This document shows, in pieces, positions 11,943 through 64,000 of a stretch of DNA of 64,000 nucleotides. The translations under genes were made by a program, and so were the position numbers. Numbering within the stretch: the stretch's first letter is position 1; each line of letters opens with the position of its first letter. The stretch is from the NCBI GenBank assembly GCA_902520385.1, contig CABYOB010000003.1, positions 2,845 through 66,844 of the forward strand, written 5' to 3'. This stretch comes from an uncultured Bacteroidota bacterium (GTDB lineage Bacteria > Bacteroidota > Bacteroidia > Flavobacteriales > TMED113). The notes below the pieces were generated by a model that did no database searches, was not told the DNA's origin, and saw only the letters and a program-made list of their open reading frames with translations.

Positions 11943-13217
11943 TCATCCGTTCATAACCTCTTCTATTTCTTCGGGATCAATTAATATATTATCCATTAGG
12001 TCAATTACCGCATTGTCTGAAATAAGAATATCGTTTTCCAGTCGAACACCTAAGTTTTCTTCTGGTATATATATACCAGGTTCACAGGTTAGCACCATGC
12101 CCTTTTTCAAAGGAGAGTTGGCGTCGGAAACATCATGAACATCTAAGCCAAGGTGGTGTGAAGTACCGTGCATAAAATATTTTTTATAGGCAGGGATACT
12201 ACCCTGGCTTTTTATGTCTTTTATTGATATGAGATTTAGGTTCACAAGCTCTTCTTCTACCAAGCCGCCTACCTCTTTTTCATAATCATGTAAAAAAACA
12301 CCAGGGCCTAAAATTTGTTTAGCTCCTCGCATTATTTTTAACACAGAGCTGTAAACTTTTTTCTGCCTAGCTGTAAATTTGCCATTTACAGGAACGCACC
12401 TTGTCAAGTCAGAGGCATAATTATTGTATTCCGCCCCAAAATCCATAAGAACAACATCACCGTTTTTCAGATCTCTGCTGTTATCTGTATAGTGAAGAAT
12501 ACATGCGTTTTTTCCAGAAGCAATTATGGGCTCATAAGCAAACCCCCTGGATTGATTATTGATGAACTCATGAATTAATTCAGCCTGAATATTATATTCA
12601 TTTATGTTAGGTTTGATAAAATGTAAAATTCTATCAAAACCTCTTTTGGTAATCTCGCAAGCCCTCTTAATCATGTCAATTTCTTCGGGTTCTTTAATTG
12701 ATCTTATTTGATGCATTATTGGGGCGGATTTGTCAATTTTAATATTAGGGAAAAGGAATTTTAGTTTATTACCAAGCCTAACGTTTCTACTTTCTACTAT
12801 AACTTTTGCCCTTGGGTGTTCATTAGTGCTTAAGTACAAAGTATTAACCTCGGTCATCAAATCATTTAAAACACGATCATAATCATCAAGCCATAAAACA
12901 GTTTTTATTCCAGATTTTTTCTGTGCCTCTTTTATAGTTAGTTTATGCCCCTCCCAAACCTTAATAGTTTCGTTAGTTTTTTTTATGAATAAAATTTCTT
13001 TTAAAAATTGATCTTTCGCGTCAGGAAAAATAACTAAACAACTATCCTCTTGGTCAATGCCACTTAAATAAAACAAATCATTATTTTGTCTAAATGGCAT
13101 AAGCCCATCTGCATTGGTGGGCATTTGGTCGTTTGAATGAAAAATAGCCAAGCCACCAGGTTTAATTTTTTCAGAAAACTTCCGTCTATTTTTTTTAAAT
13201 AATTTGTCGTTTAGCAT
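11943..13217 (-). CDS. pepP: Xaa-Pro aminopeptidase (M24B)
   Basis: Metal ligand blocks DFGAEYNNYASDLTR, HGTSHHLGLDVHD and EPGIY...GVRLEND are present. Confidence 0.8.
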   Translation of the reverse strand: MLNDKLFKKNRRKFSEKIKPGGLAIFHSNDQMPTNADGLMPFRQNNDLFYLSGIDQEDSCLVIFPDAKDQFLKEILFIKKTNETIKVWEGHKLTIKEAQKKSGIKTVLWLDDYDRVLNDLMTEVNTLYLSTNEHPRAKVIVESRNVRLGNKLKFLFPNIKIDKSAPIMHQIRSIKEPEEIDMIKRACEITKRGFDRILHFIKPNINEYNIQAELIHEFINNQSRGFAYEPIIASGKNACILHYTDNSRDLKNGDVVLMDFGAEYNNYASDLTRCVPVNGKFTARQKKVYSSVLKIMRGAKQILGPGVFLHDYEKEVGGLVEEELVNLNLISIKDIKSQGSIPAYKKYFMHGTSHHLGLDVHDVSDANSPLKKGMVLTCEPGIYIPEENLGVRLENDILISDNAVIDLMDNILIDPEEIEEVMNG

Positions 13218-13302
13218 AGTCTATGTTTTTGTTTTTTAAAGATAAGTATTTATTAAATCAAATTACTAATTGAAAAATTGTTGTTTTATTACTATTCTGT
13301 GC

Positions 13303-13310
13303 TACTTTTG
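13303..13310 (+). promoter_or_regulatory. candidate -7 box (TACTTTTG) for sdhC
   Basis: Matches the Bacteroidetes TAnnTTTG consensus 22 nt upstream of ATG 13332, with a TTG about 19 nt further upstream. Confidence 0.4.
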
Positions 13311-13331
13311 TAAAGTAAATACGTACTAATT

Positions 13332-13997
13332 ATGTTTAACTCTTCAATTGGGAGAAAATTAATAATGGCACTTTCGGGTGTGTTTTTAATTGTTTTTTTA
13401 ACACAACATCTAGTGATAAACCTCACCTCGTTAATTCCAGACAACGGAAAGGTTTTTAATTTCATTTCTCATTTTATGGGTAACAACCCTGTGGTTCAAT
13501 TTATTTTGCAGCCCATCCTAATTTTAGGAGTCATGATTCATTTTATAATGGGGATGTACCTTGAGGTTTTAAATCGACGATCTCGACAAACTTCGTATGT
13601 TGTGTATTCTGGCAAGAGTGGTGCTAGCTGGGCGTCAAGAAACATGATAATTTCAGGTCTAGTTATTTTATCGTTTTTGATTATGCATTTTTATGATTTT
13701 TGGGTGCCTGAAATGGTATATAAATATGTAGAGTTTAACCCATTGGATGAAAATAGATATTTTCATGAATTACAAGAAAAATTTTATAAAGGAGGAGTTG
13801 TTAAGCTTTTTTTGTATTGCGTTTCATTTGTTTTATTGGGGCTTCATTTGTCACATGGGTTTTCGTCATCACTACAATCAATGGGGATTACAAGGGGGCC
13901 AATTAAAATAGCAACTAAATTTTTTGCAATTATAGTTCCAGCTGGATTTATAATAATCGCCTCTTTTCACTATTTTATAACCACAATAAATCACTAA
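13332..13997 (+). CDS. sdhC: succinate dehydrogenase/fumarate reductase cytochrome b subunit (Bacteroidetes type)
   Basis: 221-aa polytopic membrane protein with His-containing helices, directly upstream of sdhA and sdhB. Confidence 0.8.
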   Translation: MFNSSIGRKLIMALSGVFLIVFLTQHLVINLTSLIPDNGKVFNFISHFMGNNPVVQFILQPILILGVMIHFIMGMYLEVLNRRSRQTSYVVYSGKSGASWASRNMIISGLVILSFLIMHFYDFWVPEMVYKYVEFNPLDENRYFHELQEKFYKGGVVKLFLYCVSFVLLGLHLSHGFSSSLQSMGITRGPIKIATKFFAIIVPAGFIIIASFHYFITTINH

Positions 13998-14224
13998 AAG
14001 AGCTAAGGTAGACAAAAAAAGACATAAGTGGACATTAGTGGACAAAATAATGCGTATCTAATCAAATTTCACTATATTTGGCTTAAATATAGACAAATAT
14101 TTTATAACCACAATAAATCACTAAAAGAGATAAGGTAGACAAAAAAAGACATAAGTGGACATTAGTGGACAAAATAATGCGTATCTAATCAAATTTCACT
14201 ATATTTGGCTTAAATATAGACAAA
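13971..14224. repeat. 127-bp tandem direct duplication (2 units, 1 mismatch)
   Basis: Unit 13971-14097 is repeated at 14098-14224 with one C>A difference. Each unit contains the last 27 nt of sdhC including its stop, four GACA boxes at 10-bp spacing, and a TATATTTG box. Confidence 0.9.
14200..14207 (+). promoter_or_regulatory. candidate -7 box (TATATTTG) for the HTH-sdhA ORF; a duplicate copy lies at about 14073-14080
   Basis: Perfect TAnnTTTG 19 nt upstream of ATG 14226. It lies inside the duplicated unit, downstream of the GACA box array. Confidence 0.45.
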
Positions 14225-14225
14225 A

Positions 14226-16478
14226 ATGGACAATGGGTTAAAAATGTTTAGTATAAATGAGTTAGCTGAGTTTTTAAATGTATCAAAAAAAACTATAAGG
14301 CGCCATATTGCTTCAGGTAAAATAGAATCTACAAAAGTGGGAGGTGTTCATAGAATATCGATGAATTCTATTAATTCGTTTCTTAACATTAATAAAGATA
14401 TAGCACAAGTTGATGCAAACATTAATAAAGAGTTGCTAAGAAAAGCTTTAACTAATGACGCTCATAAAAAAAATTTATTTCCGTTTGAAAGTAGAGTTCC
14501 TGAGGGAAAAATGGAAGATAAGTGGAATAACCATAAGAGAAAAATAAATTTAGTAAGCCCCGCAAACAAAAGGTTAATCGATGTAATAGTTGTTGGAACT
14601 GGCTTGGCGGGAGCCTCCGCCTCAGCAACATTGGCCGAGTTGGGGTATAATGTTAAATCTTTTTGTTTTCAAGATTCCTCCAGAAGAGCTCATTCAATTG
14701 CGGCACAAGGAGGTATAAACGCTGCTAAAAATTATCAAGGAGATGGCGATTCAGTATATAGACTTTTTTATGATACTGTTAAGGGTGGAGATTATAGATC
14801 TAGAGAGGCGAATGTTCATCGATTAGCAGAGGTTTCGACCAACATTATTGACCAGTGCGTTGCTCAAGGTGTTCCGTTTGCTAGAGATTATGGTGGGTTA
14901 TTGGATAATAGGTCATTTGGTGGCGTGTTAGTTTCGCGTACTTTTTATGCCAAAGGACAAACAGGTCAACAGTTATTGCTTGGTGCTTATTCAGCCATGA
15001 ACAGACAAGTTAATAGAGGTAAAATAAAAATGTATGCTCGCCATGAAATGTTAGAACTTGTGATAGTTGGTGGTAAGGCCAGGGGAATAATTGCTCGTAA
15101 TCTAATAACGGGTAAGTTGGAAAGGCATTCAGCTCATGCTGTTGTAATTGCTAGTGGGGGCTATGGTAATGTTTTTTTCTTATCTACAAATGCTATGGGT
15201 AGTAATGTTACAGCGGCATGGAAAATACACAAGAAAGGAGCGTATTTTGCTAATCCATGTTTTACTCAAATACACCCAACGTGTATTCCGGTTTCCGGAG
15301 AAAATCAATCTAAATTAACTTTAATGTCAGAATCATTGAGAAATGATGGGAGAATTTGGGTTCCAAAGAAAAAAGAAGATGTAAAGAAAATATTAGAAAA
15401 AAAACTAAAACCAACAGATATTGACGAGTCTGATAGAGACTATTATCTTGAAAGAAGGTATCCAGCATTTGGAAACCTTGTTCCTCGTGATGTTGCATCA
15501 AGAGCAGCTAAAGAAAGGTGTGATGCTGGCTACGGCGTAAATAAAACAGGAGAGGCTGTGTACTTAGATTTTCAGTCTGCTATTTTAAGATATGGTAAAG
15601 AACAGGCGTATTCTAAGGGTTTGGATGTAAAAAATAATAGCCTTGTAGAAAAATTAGGTAAAGAAATAATCAAACAAAAATATGGCAATTTATTTGAAAT
15701 GTATGAAAAAATAACGGATGAAAACCCATATGAAACACCCATGATGATATATCCAGCTGTTCATTACACTATGGGGGGAGTTTGGGTTGATTATAATTTA
15801 ATGACTACAGTTCCAGGTTGTTATGCAATCGGAGAAGCTAATTTTTCGGATCATGGAGCTAATAGATTAGGTGCCTCTGCTTTAATGCAAGGGTTGGCAG
15901 ATGGATACTTTGTTCTTCCTTATACAATTGGAGATTATTTGTCGTCTGATATAAGAACTGGAAAAATAAGTATTGATACAAAAGAGTTTGAAATAGCGGA
16001 AAAAGAAGCATTAAGAAAGTTGTCTTTTTTTATTGATAATAAGGGCTCAAAACCAGTTGACTATTTTCATAAAAAGTTAGGCAGAATAATGTGGGATAAG
16101 TGCGGGATGTCTAGAAACAAATTGGAGTTAAAAGATGCAATTTTAGAAATAAAAAAATTAAAAAAAGATTTTTATAAAAATGTTTTTGTGCCAGGTGAAT
16201 TGTACGATTATAACGAAGAGCTAGCAAAAGCAGGCAGGGTTGCGGACTTTATTGAATTAGGAGAGCTTTTTGCACGTGATGCTTTAGAAAGAGAGGAGTC
16301 TTGTGGTGGCCATTTTAGAGAAGAACATCAAACTAAAGAAGGGGAAGCTCTGCGTGATGATGAGAATTTTAATTTTGTTTCTGCGTGGGAATTTAAAGGC
16401 AGTGAGTCTAATCCTATGCTACATAAGGAAAAGTTAATATTCGACTCTGTTGAATTAAAATCAAGAAGTTATAAATAG
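14226..16478 (+). CDS. sdhA: succinate dehydrogenase/fumarate reductase flavoprotein subunit with an in-frame N-terminal excisionase-family HTH extension
   Basis: The SdhA core runs from [16 protein letters not shown]...[11 protein letters not shown] (FAD motif) to the C-terminus. Residues 7-54 ([47 protein letters not shown]) match the excisionase/MerR-like HTH pattern. No stop codon separates the two parts. An alternative start is ATG 14511. Confidence 0.85.
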
Positions 16479-16487
16479 CAAAAAGAT

Positions 16488-17234
16488 ATGAAACTTAATT
16501 TAAAAATATGGAGACAAAAAAACAAGGATTCTAAAGGAAAAGTTCATGATTATGAACTTGATGGTGTTGAGGAGGACATGTCTTTTTTAGAGATGTTAGA
16601 TTTTTTAAACAACAAGCTTTTAAATGAAGGGCAGGAGCCTGTTGCCTTTGATCATGATTGTAGAGAAGGGATATGTGGATCGTGTTCTTTATTTATTAAT
16701 GGTGTTGCACATGGTCCGGAAAGGGGCACCACGACATGCCAATTACATATGAGAAAGTTCAAAGATGGAGAAACGGTATATGTTGAGCCATTTAGAGCAA
16801 AGGCTTTTCCTGTAATTAAGGACTTAATTGTAGATAGGTCTTCATTTGACAGAATACAACAAGCTGGTGCGTATATTTCAGTAAACACATCTGGAAACAC
16901 ACAAGACGCTAACACAATACCAATACCCAAACATAATGCGGACGAGGCTTTTAATGCCGCTACTTGTATTGGTTGTGGGGCCTGTGTGGCCTCATGTAAA
17001 AATTCCTCAGCGATGCTTTTTACATCAGCTAAAGTTTCGCAATTTTCTTTGCTTCCTCAGGGACAGGTAGAAAGAGAAAGTAGGGTTTTAAATATGGTAA
17101 ATCAAATGGACCTAGAGGGTTTTGGTGCGTGTACCAATACAGGGGCATGTGAGGCTCAGTGCCCTAAGGGCATTTCTGTAAAAAATATTGCCAGAATGAA
17201 CAGAGAATACTTATTAGCAAGCGTTAAAAAATAA
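16488..17234 (+). CDS. sdhB: succinate dehydrogenase/fumarate reductase iron-sulfur subunit
   Basis: Cys clusters [20 protein letters not shown] and [12 protein letters not shown] are present. Confidence 0.9.
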
Positions 17235-20461: not shown

Positions 20462-20533
20462 GCTGACGTAGCTCAGGGGCAGAGCGCTTCCTTGGTAAGG
20501 AAGAGGTCGGGAGTTCAAATCTCCTCGTTAGCT
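20462..20533 (+). tRNA. tRNA-Thr (anticodon GGT)
   Basis: Hand-folded cloverleaf. Acceptor is GCTGACG/CGTTAGC and the D arm is GCTC-AGGGGCA-GAGC. The anticodon arm is CTTCC-TTGGTAA-GGAAG and the T arm is GGGAG-TTCAAAT-CTCCT. Confidence 0.9.
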
Positions 20534-41995: not shown

Positions 41996-43281
41996 AAAAT
42001 CTATATATCCTATTATTCATTTTACCATTGATTGGGCTTGGACAAGGATGGGAACAGACCTTTGGAGGGACCGAACTTGATGTTGGCAGATCTGTTCAAC
42101 AAACAACAGACGGAGGATATATCATTTTTGGATATTCAAATAATTTTGGAATGGGTTATCCAGATTTTTATTTAATTAAAACATATGAAGATGGAGAAGA
42201 AGAATGGTTCCAAATCTATGAAGAGGGATTTAATGGTTACTCAGTACAACAAACAACAGACGGAGGATACATCATTTTTGGAGAAACATATACTTTTGAT
42301 GGTGACAATACTTTTGATTTTTATTTAATTAAAACAGATGGAATTGGAGAAGAAGAATGGTCTCAGGATTATGGTTTTTCGGGGATACATGATTTTGGTA
42401 GATCTGTCCAACAAACCACTGATGGGGGATACATTCTTTGTGGAACTACAAAAGGTGTTTTTGATAATAATGAATGGGAAGATTCGGAGATATATTTAAT
42501 AAAGACGAATGGTAGTGGAGAAGAAGAATGGTCTCAAACTTTTGAAGGATATGGGAATGGAGAGGAAGCTCAACAAACAACAGATGGAGGATATATCATT
42601 ACAGGGTTTTGTGGGAACCTTAACAATCGTGATGTTTGTCTAATCAAAACAGACCAAAATGGGGATGAACAGTGGTCACAAACATTTGGAGGAGAAGAAG
42701 ATGACATTGGTTGGTCAACTCAACAAACCACTGATGGGGGGTATATTATTACAGGAACCACAACTTCTTTTGGAAATGGAAATGATGATGTATATCTAAT
42801 CAAAACAGACGTAAATGGGGATGAAGAATGGTCACAAACATTTGGTGGAATATTTCCAGAGGGAGGCTATTCAGTCCAACAAACCTTGGATGGAGGATAT
42901 ATTATAACTGGAATGACAACGGATGAAAATGAAAACAGAGATGTATATTTAATCAAAACATATGAAAATGGAGATGAAGAATGGTCACAAACATTTGGTG
43001 AATCTAGTAATAATGATCTAGGTTATTCAGTCCAACAAACTTTGGATGAAGGATATATAATTACAGGATATACACAAGAAGGAGACACAGATGTCTATTT
43101 AATAAAAACAGACGAACAAGGAAACGTAACATCAACTATCGAACTACCAACCCCATCATCAAAAAGGGAATTGATAAAAACAACCAACATTCTAGGACAA
43201 GAAAACACAACCATTAAAAATCAACCATTAATAGAAATATATGATGATGGTTCGACCGAAAAAAAGATAGTGTTAGAATAG
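41992..43281 (+). CDS. secreted repeat protein (about 9 tandem roughly 45-aa beta-propeller-like repeats) with short C-terminal tag
   Basis: The recurring unit is SVQQTTDGGYIITG...DVYLIKTD.NGDEEWSQTFGG. The tail is LIKTTNILGQENTT...IEIYDDGSTEKKIVLE. GTG start overlaps the upstream stop. Confidence 0.7.
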   Translation: MKNLYILLFILPLIGLGQGWEQTFGGTELDVGRSVQQTTDGGYIIFGYSNNFGMGYPDFYLIKTYEDGEEEWFQIYEEGFNGYSVQQTTDGGYIIFGETYTFDGDNTFDFYLIKTDGIGEEEWSQDYGFSGIHDFGRSVQQTTDGGYILCGTTKGVFDNNEWEDSEIYLIKTNGSGEEEWSQTFEGYGNGEEAQQTTDGGYIITGFCGNLNNRDVCLIKTDQNGDEQWSQTFGGEEDDIGWSTQQTTDGGYIITGTTTSFGNGNDDVYLIKTDVNGDEEWSQTFGGIFPEGGYSVQQTLDGGYIITGMTTDENENRDVYLIKTYENGDEEWSQTFGESSNNDLGYSVQQTLDEGYIITGYTQEGDTDVYLIKTDEQGNVTSTIELPTPSSKRELIKTTNILGQENTTIKNQPLIEIYDDGSTEKKIVLE

Positions 43282-62286: not shown

Positions 62287-62925
62287 ATGAAGAATTTTAC
62301 CATATTTCATGCACTAGTTATTATAATTGGAGGGTTGATGTCTATTATTTTCCTAGGCTCATTCATCCTACACATATTAGGTGATATGGGTGCAACAGGG
62401 GTTCTTTTTGTAGTCTGTGTTTTTGGAATGGCTGTTTTTTTAATTACCAATAAAGAATCACGCGATAAAAAGAATAAATATATAAGAGAATCGAAGGATG
62501 AAACAAGTCACAAACAAGATGACTACGTAACTCAATCTAAAAATAAAGCTTACTTGACTGGAGATTGTGAAAATGGATACGGAACCTTTATCTCTTCGAA
62601 AGGAGATAAATACGTAGGAGAATGGAAGGACGGTAAACAGCATGGACATGGAACTTATACTTTTGATAATGGAGATAAATACGTAGGAGAATTTCGGAAT
62701 GGTAAACATCACGGACAAGGTACATTTATTTGGTCGAGCGGAGGAAAATATGTAGGAGAATGGAAAGACGGTAAACATCACGGACAAGGAACTTTTACTT
62801 TTGGTAGTGGAGATAAATACGCAGGAGAATGGAAGGATGATGAAATGCACGGACAAGGAATTTATACCTTTGCTAGGGGATCAAAAATCGTAGGAGAATT
62901 TAAGGACGGAAAGCCTGTAGAATAA
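62287..62925 (+). CDS. membrane-anchored MORN-repeat protein
   Basis: Two N-terminal TM helices, then 5-6 repeats of YVGEWKDGK.HG.GT.TF..G.K. Confidence 0.75.
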   Translation: MKNFTIFHALVIIIGGLMSIIFLGSFILHILGDMGATGVLFVVCVFGMAVFLITNKESRDKKNKYIRESKDETSHKQDDYVTQSKNKAYLTGDCENGYGTFISSKGDKYVGEWKDGKQHGHGTYTFDNGDKYVGEFRNGKHHGQGTFIWSSGGKYVGEWKDGKHHGQGTFTFGSGDKYAGEWKDDEMHGQGIYTFARGSKIVGEFKDGKPVE

Positions 62926-63151: not shown

Positions 63152-64000
63152 ATGAAAAAACACATATTAATATTTCTTTTTCCTCTTTTTAGTATTGGAC
63201 AAGATTACTCTACATTCTATGTAAAGAAAAAAATTGATGCTAATGTTAATATCAATCAAAATGTTAACATCAATAAAAATGTTAACATCAATAAAAATGT
63301 TAATGTGAGTGGAAATGTTAAAAAAACTATAACCACAATTGATTATGGTCAATTAGCTAATGCAAACGCTCAAAGAGAAGCAAATAAACTCGAACAAAAA
63401 AGAATAGCTATTGAACAAGCTCAATATAATGATGCTAAAGCAAGAGAACAGGCAATAATACTTCATAACCAATCTATAGAAATAGCCGAAAATCCAGTAA
63501 AAGCTCACACATATGGTATTCCATGGCCAAATAATTGGAACACTGATTATTGGAAAGGTTTGTATTTTAATGGTTTTTTGAGTTACACTGAAACTATTAC
63601 CGTCCCTCATCAATCTTTATTTCAGAATGTGGGAGAGTGGAGATGGGAAAATATATCATCTGACGGGATTACTACAGAAATGAATCACGTTTTTCCTGTA
63701 TTCAATTATATGAATTATCAAATTATGAGCTGGGATGAATCTCAAAAATATTCAACTAGAATGCAGTATTTGTTAGAATATTATAAAAATAATGAAAAGC
63801 CTAAAAGTAAAAATTATAAAAAAGATAAAGATGGTTTCAAAAAAGCTTTGAAGCGATATGAAGAAATATGTGACAGCCTAGATAATTGGGGGGTTTGGTA
63901 TACGGCTAGAGAATGGTCTAAAACACCATGGATAAAGGTAAATGAAATGCAAGTGGTACAAAACGGGGATAGCGCATATTGTCATCAAGTAGAAGTTGTA
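63152..64000 (+). CDS. hypothetical secreted protein, 3' end beyond window (not in ORF track)
   Basis: I translated 283 codons by hand with no stop: MKKHILIFLFPLFSIGQDYSTFYVKKKIDANVNINQNVNINKNVNINKNVNVSGNVKK...WPNNWNTDYWKG... It has a signal peptide plus Q and lies behind a promoter cassette. The minus-strand track ORFs here look spurious. Confidence 0.6.
   Translation, partial: MKKHILIFLFPLFSIGQDYSTFYVKKKIDANVNINQNVNINKNVNINKNVNVSGNVKKTITTIDYGQLANANAQREANKLEQKRIAIEQAQYNDAKAREQAIILHNQSIEIAENPVKAHTYGIPWPNNWNTDYWKGLYFNGFLSYTETITVPHQSLFQNVGEWRWENISSDGITTEMNHVFPVFNYMNYQIMSWDESQKYSTRMQYLLEYYKNNEKPKSKNYKKDKDGFKKALKRYEEICDSLDNWGVWYTAREWSKTPWIKVNEMQVVQNGDSAYCHQVEVV

What the first reader, a model, noticed from the sequence alone, without database searches (positions are those of the whole stretch)
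14005..14235. GACA boxes at exact 10-bp (helical) phasing overlapping the promoter of the HTH-sdhA ORF
In each repeat unit GACA recurs at 10-bp steps, four times. The contexts are GTAGACAAA, AAAGACATA, GTGGACATT and GTGGACAAA, at about 14011/14021/14031/14041 and 14138/14148/14158/14168. Another ATAGACAAA lies about 51 nt (five turns) downstream of the fourth box of each unit. A last box overlaps the start codon (ATGGACAAT), 10 nt after the preceding one. That gives 11 same-orientation boxes, largely on one helical face (phasing holds within each unit; the ~46-nt step from 14092 to 14138 between units breaks it). They sit 30-60 nt upstream of the TATATTTG -7 box. Phased direct repeats are how excisionases/RDFs and many winged-helix regulators bind DNA, and such a domain is encoded immediately downstream.
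Basis: partly seen in the sequence, partly recalled or inferred. Interest (0 to 1): 0.7.

Follow-up and report, generated by a model that had tools for sequence, protein, structure and literature searches.

The report
Self-operator of a DNA-binding succinate dehydrogenase
The phased GACA repeats are real and appear to be the docking sites for a small DNA-binding domain fused to the front of the respiratory enzyme subunit SdhA; this pairing recurs in dozens of uncultured marine Flavobacteriales, which suggests the enzyme controls its own gene.

Summary
There are 11 same-strand GACA boxes at the stated positions, none on the other strand. But 5 of the 11 come from a 127-bp tandem duplication (13971-14224, 126/127 identical) seen in none of the roughly 55 related loci. 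The independent unit has three parts: four boxes at exact 10-bp steps (-76..-37), a Bacteroidetes sigma-A -7 box (TATATTTG), and two boxes at about +8 and +18, the last overlapping the ATG. The downstream ORF is a true in-frame fusion of an HTH_17 (Xis/BldC-like) winged helix to full-length SdhA. The fusion and T(G/A)GACA(A/T) boxes at 10-bp phasing recur in about 55 marine Flavobacteriales loci. There, 10-bp pairs occur at 15 per kb against 0.006 per kb in background, while the sequence between boxes drifts. The same HTH subfamily is fused to C5 DNA methyltransferases elsewhere in Bacteroidota, with the same layout: -7 box, then two GACA boxes, the second on the ATG. Unfused relatives have sdhC and sdhA 1 nt apart, so the whole cassette is an insertion. 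Best reading: an autoregulatory operator bound head-to-tail by the fused domain. This is a new variant of the enzyme-plus-regulator ("trigger enzyme") theme. Binding and the sign of regulation are untested.

The parts
13332..13997 (+). sdhC (cytochrome b / membrane anchor subunit of complex II). No terminator-like site follows it.
   Evidence: ORF; Pfam Sdh_cyt; no terminator-like site in 13200-14400.
13971..14097 (+). Unit 1 of the 127-bp tandem duplication. It holds the last 9 sdhC codons, distal array copy 1, promoter copy P1 and one proximal box.
   Evidence: TRF period 127, 2.0 copies, 99%; 1 mismatch; absent from the related loci inspected, including the closest, L001 and L041.
14098..14224 (+). 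Unit 2 of the duplication. This is the copy that corresponds to the single-copy spacer of relatives.
14009..14048 (+). Distal GACA array, copy 1. Four boxes at 14011, 14021, 14031 and 14041, lying -76..-37 relative to the predicted P1 start site.
14073..14080 (+). -7 box TATATTTG of the duplicated promoter P1 (predicted TSS about 14085).
   Evidence: the sigma-A consensus TAnnTTTG spans -12..-5 (PMC9723704).
14089..14098 (+). Proximal box ATAGACAAAT of unit 1 (GACA at 14092).
14136..14175 (+). Distal GACA array, copy 2. Four boxes at 14138, 14148, 14158 and 14168, lying -76..-37 relative to the predicted P2 start site.
   Evidence: homologous arrays of 2-5 boxes in relatives.
14200..14207 (+). 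-7 box TATATTTG of promoter P2 (predicted TSS about 14212). Conserved in nearly all related loci, and starting 17-20 nt before the first proximal GACA.
14216..14235 (+). Proximal operator: two boxes, ATAGACAAAA and ATGGACAATG (GACA at 14219 and 14229, about +8 and +18). The second contains the start codon and so encodes the family's N-terminal 'MD(N/K)'.
14244..14387 (+). HTH_17 (Xis/BldC-like winged helix) domain, residues 7-54 of the fusion protein.
   Evidence: Pfam PF12728 4.5e-11; TIGR01764; AF2 pLDDT 84-90 over residues 11-50 with strand-helix-helix-wing-helix topology; Foldseek best matches Xis and BldC.
14388..14483 (+). Linker, about residues 55-86. Length and sequence vary between relatives, and the reading frame is always kept open.
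   Evidence: alignment A1; low pLDDT; full-length 728-753-aa ORFs in relatives.
14484..16478 (+). SdhA/FrdA flavoprotein body (residues 87-750), complete.
   Evidence: NCBIfam PRK07573, 1153 bits, model positions 6-641 of 641; Pfam FAD_binding_2 + Succ_DH_flav_C.
16488..17234 (+). sdhB (iron-sulfur subunit), presumably co-transcribed with HTH-sdhA.

Best explanation
The GACA boxes are the operator of the HTH_17 domain that forms the N-terminus of SdhA.

Insertion (shown by comparison). A portable cassette was inserted between sdhC and sdhA in a lineage of marine Flavobacteriales. It consists of a sigma-A promoter with a TAnnTTTG -7 box, two or three T(G/A)GACA(A/T) boxes just downstream of the start site with one on the ATG, and the HTH_17 coding sequence. 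The insertion fused the HTH in frame to SdhA and gave sdhA-sdhB their own promoter. In the SdhA lineage a second, distal array of 2-5 boxes was added upstream of the promoter.

Mechanism (inferred). Monomers of the winged helix bind the 10-bp direct repeats head-to-tail on one face of the DNA, as BldC and Xis-type proteins do. The recognition helix (K22, R26) would read the GAC core. The wing (H42/R43) would sit in the A/T-rich minor groove that follows.

- Occupancy of the proximal boxes (+5..+24) should block initiation or promoter escape, giving negative autoregulation of sdhA-sdhB.
- The distal array is held 30-33 or 42-44 bp from the -7 box in the 26 loci scored. That is one helical turn apart, so it is face-of-helix constrained. 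It either cooperates with the proximal boxes through wrapping or looping, or contacts RNA polymerase.

Speculative extension. Only SdhA that is not assembled into the membrane complex may be free to reach the operator. Transcription would then be matched to assembly, replacing the sdhC-sdhA translational coupling that the insertion destroyed.

In this window a recent 127-bp duplication doubled the distal array and the promoter.
For: - **True fusion.** One ORF, 14226-16478, holds HTH_17 plus a complete SdhA. The frame stays open through linkers of different length and sequence in about 55 loci, with full-length ORFs of 728-753 aa.
- **Fold and contacts.** The AF2 model is best matched by Pukovnik Xis 4j2n (rmsd 1.0 Å, TM 0.77) and BldC-DNA 6ama/6amk. 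The sequence hit to 4j2n has E = 6e-5. BldC binds 2-4 direct repeats head-to-tail through K26, R30 and H46 (PMC5859096). These align to K22, R26 and H42 here. K22 and R26 are invariant in the family. H42 is invariant in alignment A1 and usual in the SdhA branch; it is Y in the methyltransferase branch.
- **Phylogenetic footprint.** In 43 non-redundant fusion upstream regions there are 212 GACA against 13 TGTC. There are 110 exact 10-bp pairs in 7.25 kb, against 2 in 329 kb of background. In the alignment of the closest loci the conserved columns fall mainly on the GACA boxes and the -7 box.
- **Independent context.** The same HTH subfamily fused to C5 DNA methyltransferases in Bacteroidales, Flavobacterium and others, and once to a DegT fragment, has the same layout: -7 box, then GACA-N6-GACA, often with the second box on the ATG.
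- **Insertion.** Unfused relatives with the same synteny have the sdhC stop and the sdhA start 1 nt apart. An unfused relative has no boxes in the 40 nt available.
- **Geometry.** The -7 box starts 17-20 nt before the first proximal GACA in both fusion classes. In the 26 loci scored, the distance from distal array to -7 box is quantised at 30-33 or 42-44 bp, with one outlier at 64.
- **Local specificity.** The window holds no other array and no other HTH of this signature.
Against: - There are no binding or expression data. That this HTH reads GACA is inferred from co-occurrence only.
- The sign of regulation is not determined. The distal array at -76..-37, phased with the promoter, would equally suit activation, and no clear -33 TTTG element is visible.
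- A few fusion loci have an intact HTH but lack proximal boxes (L011/L067) or distal boxes (L070).
- In one clade (L004, L005, L012, L077, L081-L083) the only TAnnTTTG lies upstream of the whole array, so the architecture is not uniform.
- The fold-search E-values are weak (about 7e-3) because the domain is small.
- Only 64 kb of this genome and 2-6 kb of each relative were searched. A wider regulon, or a second unlinked HTH of the same family, cannot be excluded.
- Many of the loci are related, so counts across loci are not independent events.
Confidence: 0.75

Rival explanations
1. The boxes are real cis elements but are bound by another, unlinked factor. This could be a global regulator of respiration or the TCA cycle, or a free-standing HTH_17 paralogue. 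The fused HTH would then do something else or be vestigial.
For: No direct evidence links the fused HTH to the boxes. Only part of each genome was searched. Some loci with an intact HTH lack one of the two arrays.
Against: The boxes travel with this HTH subfamily into an unrelated gene context, the methyltransferase fusions, and are not seen at the unfused junctions: L121/L122 have no spacer at all, and L124 has none in the 40 nt held. No second HTH of this signature and no other array occurs in 64 kb. The HTH contact residues are invariant across about 50 loci, which argues against a vestigial domain.
Confidence: 0.08
2. The region is a relic of a mobile element. The boxes would be excisionase or arm-type sites of an old attachment site, and the HTH a decayed Xis/RDF. 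The duplication containing the sdhC 3' end would be a target-site or att-type repeat.
For: HTH_17 is the excisionase family. The closest solved structure is a phage Xis. The 127-bp direct repeat includes the end of sdhC. The cassette was inserted.
Against: No integrase lies next to the locus. The 127-bp repeat is present only in this window, not in the other loci that carry the boxes. Fusion, boxes and promoter are kept under selection over deep divergence (40-60% identity at the N-terminus) in a fixed chromosomal position. The viral collection gave only one weak match.
Confidence: 0.05
3. The repeats are promoter architecture rather than an operator. They could act as phased A-tracts that curve the DNA like an UP element. 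Or T(G/A)GACA could act as -35-like (TTGACA-like) hexamers for RNA polymerase.
For: Several boxes are followed by A-runs at 10-bp phase. TGGACA and TAGACA match TTGACA at 5 of 6 positions and are picked up by the sigma-70 scan. The distal array is phased with the -7 box.
Against: The conserved element is GACA, not the A-tract: GACATTAGTG and GACATCGGTA are tolerated. Bacteroidetes sigma-A uses TAnnTTTG and not TTGACA (PMC9723704). Boxes also lie downstream of the start site and on the ATG, where -35 or UP elements make no sense.
Confidence: 0.05
4. The boxes act at the RNA level. They would be repeated (G/A)GACA motifs in the sdhC-sdhA intercistronic RNA or 5' leader, bound by an RNA-binding protein or affecting translation.
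For: No terminator follows sdhC, so all boxes may be transcribed from the sdhC promoter. In the L004 clade the whole array lies downstream of the only -7 box. All boxes are on the sense strand.
Against: Exact 10-bp periodicity, and one-turn quantisation relative to the -7 box, are properties of double-stranded DNA. The linked domain is a DNA-binding winged helix. No Rfam family matches. There is no complementary TGTC to form structure.
Confidence: 0.04

Closest known systems
BldC (Streptomyces) and Xis-type recombination directionality factors (lambda Xis, L5/Pukovnik Xis)
   Same: Small MerR-N-terminal-like / HTH_17 winged helix. Best structural matches are 4j2n, 6ama and 6amk. The BldC contact residues K26, R30 and H46 align to identical residues here. 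BldC binds 2-4 same-orientation direct repeats head-to-tail, about one helical turn apart, with an A/T-rich part in each repeat (PMC5859096).
   Different: Here the domain is not a free 6-8 kDa protein. It is the N-terminus of a 750-aa respiratory flavoprotein. The repeat unit is 10 bp with a GACA core, against BldC's 9-bp AATTXXXX(C). There is no recombinase or att context. The target appears to be only its own promoter.
Trigger enzymes with a fused DNA-binding domain, above all PutA (RHH domain + membrane-associated flavoenzyme); also BirA
   Same: A single polypeptide combines a metabolic enzyme with a DNA-binding domain, and the operator sits in the enzyme's own control region. Like PutA, SdhA is an FAD enzyme that works at the membrane and passes electrons to quinone (general knowledge). 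A membrane-versus-DNA partition is therefore conceivable.
   Different: The DNA-binding fold differs (HTH_17, not ribbon-helix-helix). The operator consists of phased direct repeats. SdhA is a subunit of a multi-subunit complex. No evidence yet shows that redox state, substrate or assembly changes DNA binding. No paper describing an HTH-SdhA fusion turned up in the library searches run.
SsoII/Ecl18kI-type C5 DNA methyltransferases with an N-terminal regulatory HTH
   Same: An N-terminal HTH on an enzyme binds an operator at its own promoter and autoregulates (PMC3978073 and PMC2760811, abstracts listed). The nearest relatives of the window's HTH are fused to C5 methyltransferases and carry the same GACA pair at the promoter.
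   Different: To my knowledge M.SsoII uses a different type of HTH and an inverted-repeat operator (from memory, not checked here). The family found here uses HTH_17 and direct repeats. In the window the enzyme partner is SdhA, which has nothing to do with DNA.

Membership tests
HTH_17 / excisionase-family DNA-binding domain (Pfam PF12728, TIGR01764) | Profile match above the curated threshold | tested here: met
   PF12728: 43.3 bits against a cut-off of 27, residues 7-54. TIGR01764: 35.7 bits against 28.8.
HTH_17 / excisionase-family DNA-binding domain (Pfam PF12728, TIGR01764) | Winged-helix fold (strand, two helices, beta-hairpin wing, helix) like Xis, BldC and the MerR N-terminal domain | tested here: met
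   AF2 model with pLDDT 84-90 over residues 11-50 and matching topology. Foldseek top hits are 4j2n (TM 0.77, rmsd 1.0) and 6ama/6amk (TM 0.63-0.79). E-values are only about 7e-3.
BldC-family regulators (head-to-tail binding to direct repeats) | NCBIfam HTH_BldC profile membership | tested here: inconclusive
   NF033787 is not among the 25 best of 40 families shown for the window protein. It scored only 16.6 bits against a cut-off of 77 on the related methyltransferase fusion. This is a related fold, not a BldC orthologue.
BldC-family regulators (head-to-tail binding to direct repeats) | Conserved DNA-contact residues (Lys26, Arg30, His46 of BldC) | tested here: met
K22 and R26 are invariant in the family.
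BldC-family regulators (head-to-tail binding to direct repeats) | Cooperative head-to-tail multimer on same-orientation repeats, shown by footprint or structure | not testable with these tools
   Only the DNA side is seen: 2-5 same-orientation boxes at 10-bp steps in about 55 loci.
Recombination directionality factor (excisionase) of an integrated element | Partner integrase and att sites; binding sites within attR/attL | tested here: not met
   The neighbours are pepP, sdhC and sdhB, with no integrase among the ORFs flanking the locus. The synteny is identical to unfused relatives. The 127-bp repeat is private to this window.
Trigger enzyme / autoregulatory enzyme-repressor fusion (PutA, BirA, M.SsoII type) | Enzyme and DNA-binding domain in one polypeptide, both intact | tested here: met
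   One ORF. The SdhA body matches PRK07573 over positions 6-641 of 641 at 1153 bits. FAD_binding_2 and Succ_DH_flav_C are present. The HTH is intact.
Trigger enzyme / autoregulatory enzyme-repressor fusion (PutA, BirA, M.SsoII type) | Cognate operator in the enzyme's own promoter | tested here: inconclusive
   Conserved boxes flank and overlap a conserved -7 box and travel with the HTH into other fusions. That this HTH is what binds them is inferred, not shown.
Trigger enzyme / autoregulatory enzyme-repressor fusion (PutA, BirA, M.SsoII type) | DNA binding modulated by the enzyme's substrate, redox or assembly state | not testable with these tools
   No data.
Bacteroidetes sigma-A promoter | TAnnTTTG -7 box at -12..-5 | tested here: met
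   TATATTTG at 14200-14207 and, duplicated, at 14073-14080. It is conserved in nearly all relatives at a fixed distance from the proximal boxes. Consensus from PMC9723704.
Bacteroidetes sigma-A promoter | Mapped transcription start; -33 TTTG element | not tested
   No transcript data. By eye, no clear TTTG lies about 19-23 nt upstream of the -7 box.

The most novel reading that the evidence does not exclude
Complex II of these marine Flavobacteriales may double as a membrane-tethered transcription factor. Under this reading the HTH on SdhA reaches its operator only when the flavoprotein is unassembled, or in a particular redox or substrate state. That would be a PutA-like switch coupling respiratory-chain status to sdhAB transcription. 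The module that confers it (promoter + GACA operator + HTH_17) would be a portable self-regulation cassette, taken over from restriction-modification methyltransferase genes and able to plug onto the N-terminus of unrelated enzymes.
Probability: 0.25. Interest if true: 0.8.

Novelty: new variant of a known kind. Interest (0 to 1): 0.62.

Why it matters
Enzymes that carry their own DNA-binding domain and regulate their own genes are few and instructive; PutA, BirA and some methyltransferases are examples. A DNA-binding domain on the flavoprotein of respiratory complex II did not turn up in the library searches run here. Yet it is conserved, together with its operator, in dozens of loci from ocean metagenomes, including many Tara Oceans assemblies. 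If confirmed, it would give three things.

- A new recognition code (GACA at 10-bp steps) for the very large but poorly characterised HTH_17 family.
- A natural example of a promoter-operator-regulator cassette moving between unrelated enzyme genes.
- A handle on how uncultured marine Flavobacteriales tune a central respiratory and TCA-cycle enzyme.

The predictions are simple to test with a 60-90-residue peptide and a 110-bp DNA fragment.

Tried and rejected
- **Rfam, whole window, gathering thresholds:** only one tRNA, nothing at the locus.
- **Chance or low-complexity explanation:** rejected by window statistics and simulations.
- **Other arrays in the window (a regulon):** no exact pairs elsewhere, and one-mismatch pairs are at chance level. 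No second HTH of this signature in six frames.
- **Exact-sequence look-ups of the window's HTH-SdhA (two alternative starts) and SdhC:** not on record. The source genome is not in that collection, so the 127-bp duplication could not be checked in an independent assembly. It is also not among the GTDB species representatives, where the best match is 55%.
- **Viral contigs:** one weak hit only, so there is no sign that the cassette is phage-borne.
- **Sigma-70 promoter scan:** not applicable to Bacteroidetes. Its hits on TGGACA/TAGACA as '-35' are noted only as a rival.
- **Literature searches for an HTH-SdhA fusion or an SdhA trigger enzyme:** nothing relevant.
- **Internal start hypothesis (HTH as a separate small protein, sdhA starting at M95):** rejected. 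Several relatives have no Met there, and all keep one open frame through variable linkers.
- **DnaA-box, iteron and CsrA-site ideas:** considered from the sequence and dropped. The match to the DnaA box is poor, there is no replication context, boxes lacking GGA are common, and the phasing is that of double-stranded DNA.
Full report
**1. What is in the sequence**

The region lies between sdhC (13332-13997) and a 750-codon ORF (14226-16478), which is followed by sdhB (16488-17234).

GACA starts at 14011, 14021, 14031, 14041, 14092, 14138, 14148, 14158, 14168, 14219 and 14229. There is no TGTC in 13900-14320.

The two "units" are a 127-bp tandem duplication, 13971-14097 and 14098-14224, differing at one base. 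The duplication includes the last nine codons of sdhC and the whole spacer up to 2 nt before the ATG. The independent content is therefore six boxes:
- four at exact 10-bp steps;
- one 51 bp further on;
- one 10 bp after that, on the start codon.

With the duplication collapsed, the window still has four exact 10-bp pairs in a run of four. About 0.5 pairs and 2e-6 runs of four are expected, and the longest run in 200 Markov simulations was 2. No other exact GACA-N6-GACA occurs on either strand of the 64 kb. One-mismatch versions are at chance level.

**2. The ORF is a real fusion**

- Residues 7-54 match HTH_17 (PF12728, 43.3 bits against a cut-off of 27) and the NCBIfam "excise" domain.
- Residues 87-750 match the complete SdhA/FrdA flavoprotein model PRK07573 (1153 bits, model positions 6-641 of 641).
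- A search with the first 122 residues found five metagenomic proteins with the same HTH-plus-SdhA N-terminus.
- Pattern scans found seven such loci in marine Flavobacteriales MAGs and about 44 more in marine metagenomes. Many of the latter have full-length ORFs of 728-753 aa.
- Linkers differ in length and sequence but the frame is always open. Several relatives have no internal Met from which an unfused SdhA could start.
- Unfused relatives with the same synteny (pepP divergent, then sdhC, then sdhA) have the sdhC stop and the sdhA ATG 1 nt apart. A moderately related unfused sdhA has an in-frame stop 16 nt upstream and no GACA in the 40 nt available.

The spacer, promoter, boxes, HTH and linker are therefore one inserted block.

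**3. The boxes are conserved with the fusion**

Nearly every fusion locus has same-orientation GACA boxes at 10-bp steps.

In 43 non-redundant upstream regions (-150..+20):

| Measure | Fusion upstream regions | Background (rest of the same loci, both strands) |
|---|---|---|
| GACA / TGTC | 212 / 13 | not compared |
| Exact 10-bp GACA pairs | 110 in 7.25 kb (15 per kb) | 2 in 329 kb (0.006 per kb) |

The box consensus is T(G/A)GACA(A/T)(A/T). In an alignment of the eleven closest loci, the conserved columns fall mainly on the GACA boxes, the TATATT of the -7 box and a short A/T motif before it. The sequence between them drifts. None of the related loci inspected has the 127-bp duplication, including the closest, L001 and L041.

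**4. Architecture**

TATATTTG lies at 14200-14207, with the duplicated copy at 14073-14080. In flavobacteria the sigma-A consensus TAnnTTTG occupies -12..-5 (PMC9723704). This predicts a start near 14212, and near 14085 for the duplicated promoter.

On that scale:
- the distal array spans -76..-37;
- the proximal boxes sit at about +8 and +18, the second being ATGGACAA.

Across loci the -7 box starts 17-20 nt before the first proximal GACA.

In the 26 loci that could be scored, the last distal box lies 30-33 or 42-44 bp before the -7 box, with one outlier at 64. The two classes are one helical turn apart. Long-range box-to-box distances cluster at 9, 0, 1 and 2 modulo 10.

One clade (L004, L005, L012, L077, L081-L083) differs. 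Its only TAnnTTTG abuts the upstream end of the array, so all its boxes would lie downstream of the start site.

No terminator-like site follows sdhC. Read-through transcription would have to cross the array.

**5. The same cassette on other enzymes**

The pattern scans also returned a second group, L013-L019 and L084-L106. In these the same HTH subfamily (KT[IV][12 protein letters not shown][IV]GG.YRI) is the N-terminus of a C5 cytosine DNA methyltransferase (PF00145, 1.8e-67; TIGR00675). It is preceded by a 222-232-aa ORF with no family match, presumably the restriction enzyme.

These loci come from Bacteroidales, Tenuifilaceae, Rikenellaceae, Flavobacterium and freshwater or engineered metagenomes. 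Most have a TAnnTTTG box, then 9-12 nt, then T(G/A)GACAAAT(A/T)T(G/A)GACA. In many the second box lies on the ATG, as in the window.

One low-coverage contig shows the same cassette in front of a DegT-type aminotransferase fragment.

The family's N-terminal "MD(N/K)" is thus a by-product of the operator box ATGGACAA. The co-travel of HTH and boxes into unrelated gene contexts is the strongest argument that this HTH reads these boxes.

**6. What kind of DNA binder**

- The AF2 model of residues 1-125 is confident over the HTH (pLDDT 84-90 for residues 11-50). Its topology is strand, helix, helix, beta-hairpin wing, helix. The linker is low-confidence.
- Foldseek against the PDB ranks mycobacteriophage Pukovnik Xis first (4j2n; rmsd 1.0 Å, TM 0.77). 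Next come the BldC-DNA complexes 6ama and 6amk (TM 0.63-0.79), then pSK1 Par, RacA and MerR N-domains. E-values are weak (about 7e-3) because the domain is small.
- By sequence, 4j2n is the only significant PDB hit (E = 6e-5).
- BldC binds 2-4 same-orientation 9-bp repeats as head-to-tail multimers. Lys26 and Arg30 contact the major groove, and His46 lies in a narrowed A/T minor groove (PMC5859096).
- K22 and R26 are invariant across both fusion classes. H42 is Y in the methyltransferase class.

**7. Most likely mechanism**

- *Shown:* the fusion, the boxes, their phasing, their conservation, their association with the HTH subfamily, and their position relative to a conserved -7 box.
- *Inferred:* HTH monomers bind the 10-bp repeats head-to-tail. 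Occupancy of the proximal boxes at +5..+24 blocks initiation or escape, giving autorepression of sdhA-sdhB. The phased distal array adds cooperativity through wrapping or looping, or contacts RNA polymerase.
- *Open:* the sign of regulation by the distal array.
- *Speculative:* assembly into the membrane complex, or the redox or substrate state of the flavoprotein, controls access of the HTH to DNA, as in PutA. This would replace the sdhC-sdhA translational coupling lost through the insertion.
- *In this window:* the duplication creates a second promoter, P1. Its transcripts must cross array 2 and P2, an arrangement that resembles the L004 clade.

**8. Rivals**

| Rival | Why it is less likely |
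|---|---|
| Another factor binds the boxes | The boxes follow the HTH into methyltransferase genes and are not seen at the unfused junctions |
| Relic att site or RDF | No integrase; the 127-bp repeat is private to this window; deep conservation at a fixed locus; almost nothing in viral contigs |
| Curvature or -35-like elements | The conserved part is GACA, not the A-tract; boxes lie downstream of the start; Bacteroidetes sigma-A does not use TTGACA |
| RNA element | 10-bp periodicity and one-turn quantisation point to double-stranded DNA; no Rfam hit; no complementary strand motif |

**9. Comparison and novelty**

- It works like BldC/Xis in binding mode. It works like PutA, BirA or M.SsoII-type proteins in logic: an enzyme with its own DNA-binding domain and operator.
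- It is a member of the HTH_17 family; the profile and fold tests are met.
- It is not an RDF; the integrase and att test is not met.
- It is not a BldC orthologue; the BldC profile was far below threshold on the related methyltransferase fusion and is not among the families listed for the window protein.
- The library searches run found no description of an HTH-SdhA fusion or of this GACA operator.

I rate it a new variant of a known kind.

**10. Verdict**

- Two corrections apply: the box count is inflated by a private duplication, and the domain is not acting as an excisionase.
- Interest is 0.62. This is a clean, widely conserved and easily testable new example of an autoregulating enzyme, on an unexpected partner (complex II). 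Function is still inferred from sequence alone.

Noticed in passing
window 13971-14224: A 127-bp tandem duplication (126/127 identical) of the sdhC 3' end, the whole spacer and the promoter. It is absent from the related loci inspected, including the closest, L001 and L041. It creates a second promoter copy and a non-coding copy of the last 9 sdhC codons. It could not be checked against an independent assembly because the source genome is not in the collections.
   Followed up: partly
window 14226-14234; all related loci: The conserved N-terminal 'MD(N/K)' of the HTH-SdhA and HTH-methyltransferase proteins is encoded by an operator box (ATGGACAA). A DNA-level constraint is visible as protein conservation.
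   Followed up: yes
L013-L019, L084-L106 (e.g. L014 2245-4269): The same HTH_17 subfamily is fused to C5 cytosine DNA methyltransferases across Bacteroidota. These follow a conserved 222-232-aa ORF with no Pfam or NCBIfam match, presumably a restriction endonuclease of an uncharacterised family. A GACA-N6-GACA pair lies at the methyltransferase promoter.
   Followed up: partly
P0031 (479 aa), P0032 (2605 aa), P0033-P0041: Some proteins consist of 4-16 tandem HTH_17 domains; 8 were confirmed by Pfam in P0031. Covalent arrays of this domain would suit binding to long arrays of direct repeats.
   Followed up: no
L123 487-984 (P0097): A third fusion partner: the same HTH subfamily in front of a DegT/DnrJ/EryC1 aminotransferase fragment. 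Upstream lies TAAATTTG, 9 nt, then GACAataatgGACA. The contig has very low coverage and may be chimeric.
   Followed up: partly
L121 1499-1501, L122 1499-1501; L124 1-60: Unfused relatives have the sdhC stop and the sdhA start 1 nt apart, which suggests translational coupling. Another related lineage (L124) has an A/T-rich spacer but no HTH. The module is therefore patchily distributed.
   Followed up: yes
L070 about 2475-2520; L011/L067: Exceptions to the rule. L070 has no distal array but has two inverted TGTC at -26 and -6, plus GACA at +3 and +13. L011/L067 keep the distal boxes but have no proximal ones, with 'MENK' instead of 'MDN'.
   Followed up: no
window 62602-62909 and 42630-43068: Coding tandem repeats. 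One has period 69 (or 138) with 4.5 copies, and its consensus DNA translates to GDKYVGEWKDGKQHGQGTYTF-like units; this looks like MORN-type repeats, judged from memory and not tested. The other has period 156 with 2.8 copies.
   Followed up: no
window 63242-63303: An 18-bp unit AATGTTAACATCAATAAA repeated 3.4 times at 95% identity.
   Followed up: no
window 20462-20533: A single tRNA gene, the only Rfam hit in the window.
   Followed up: no
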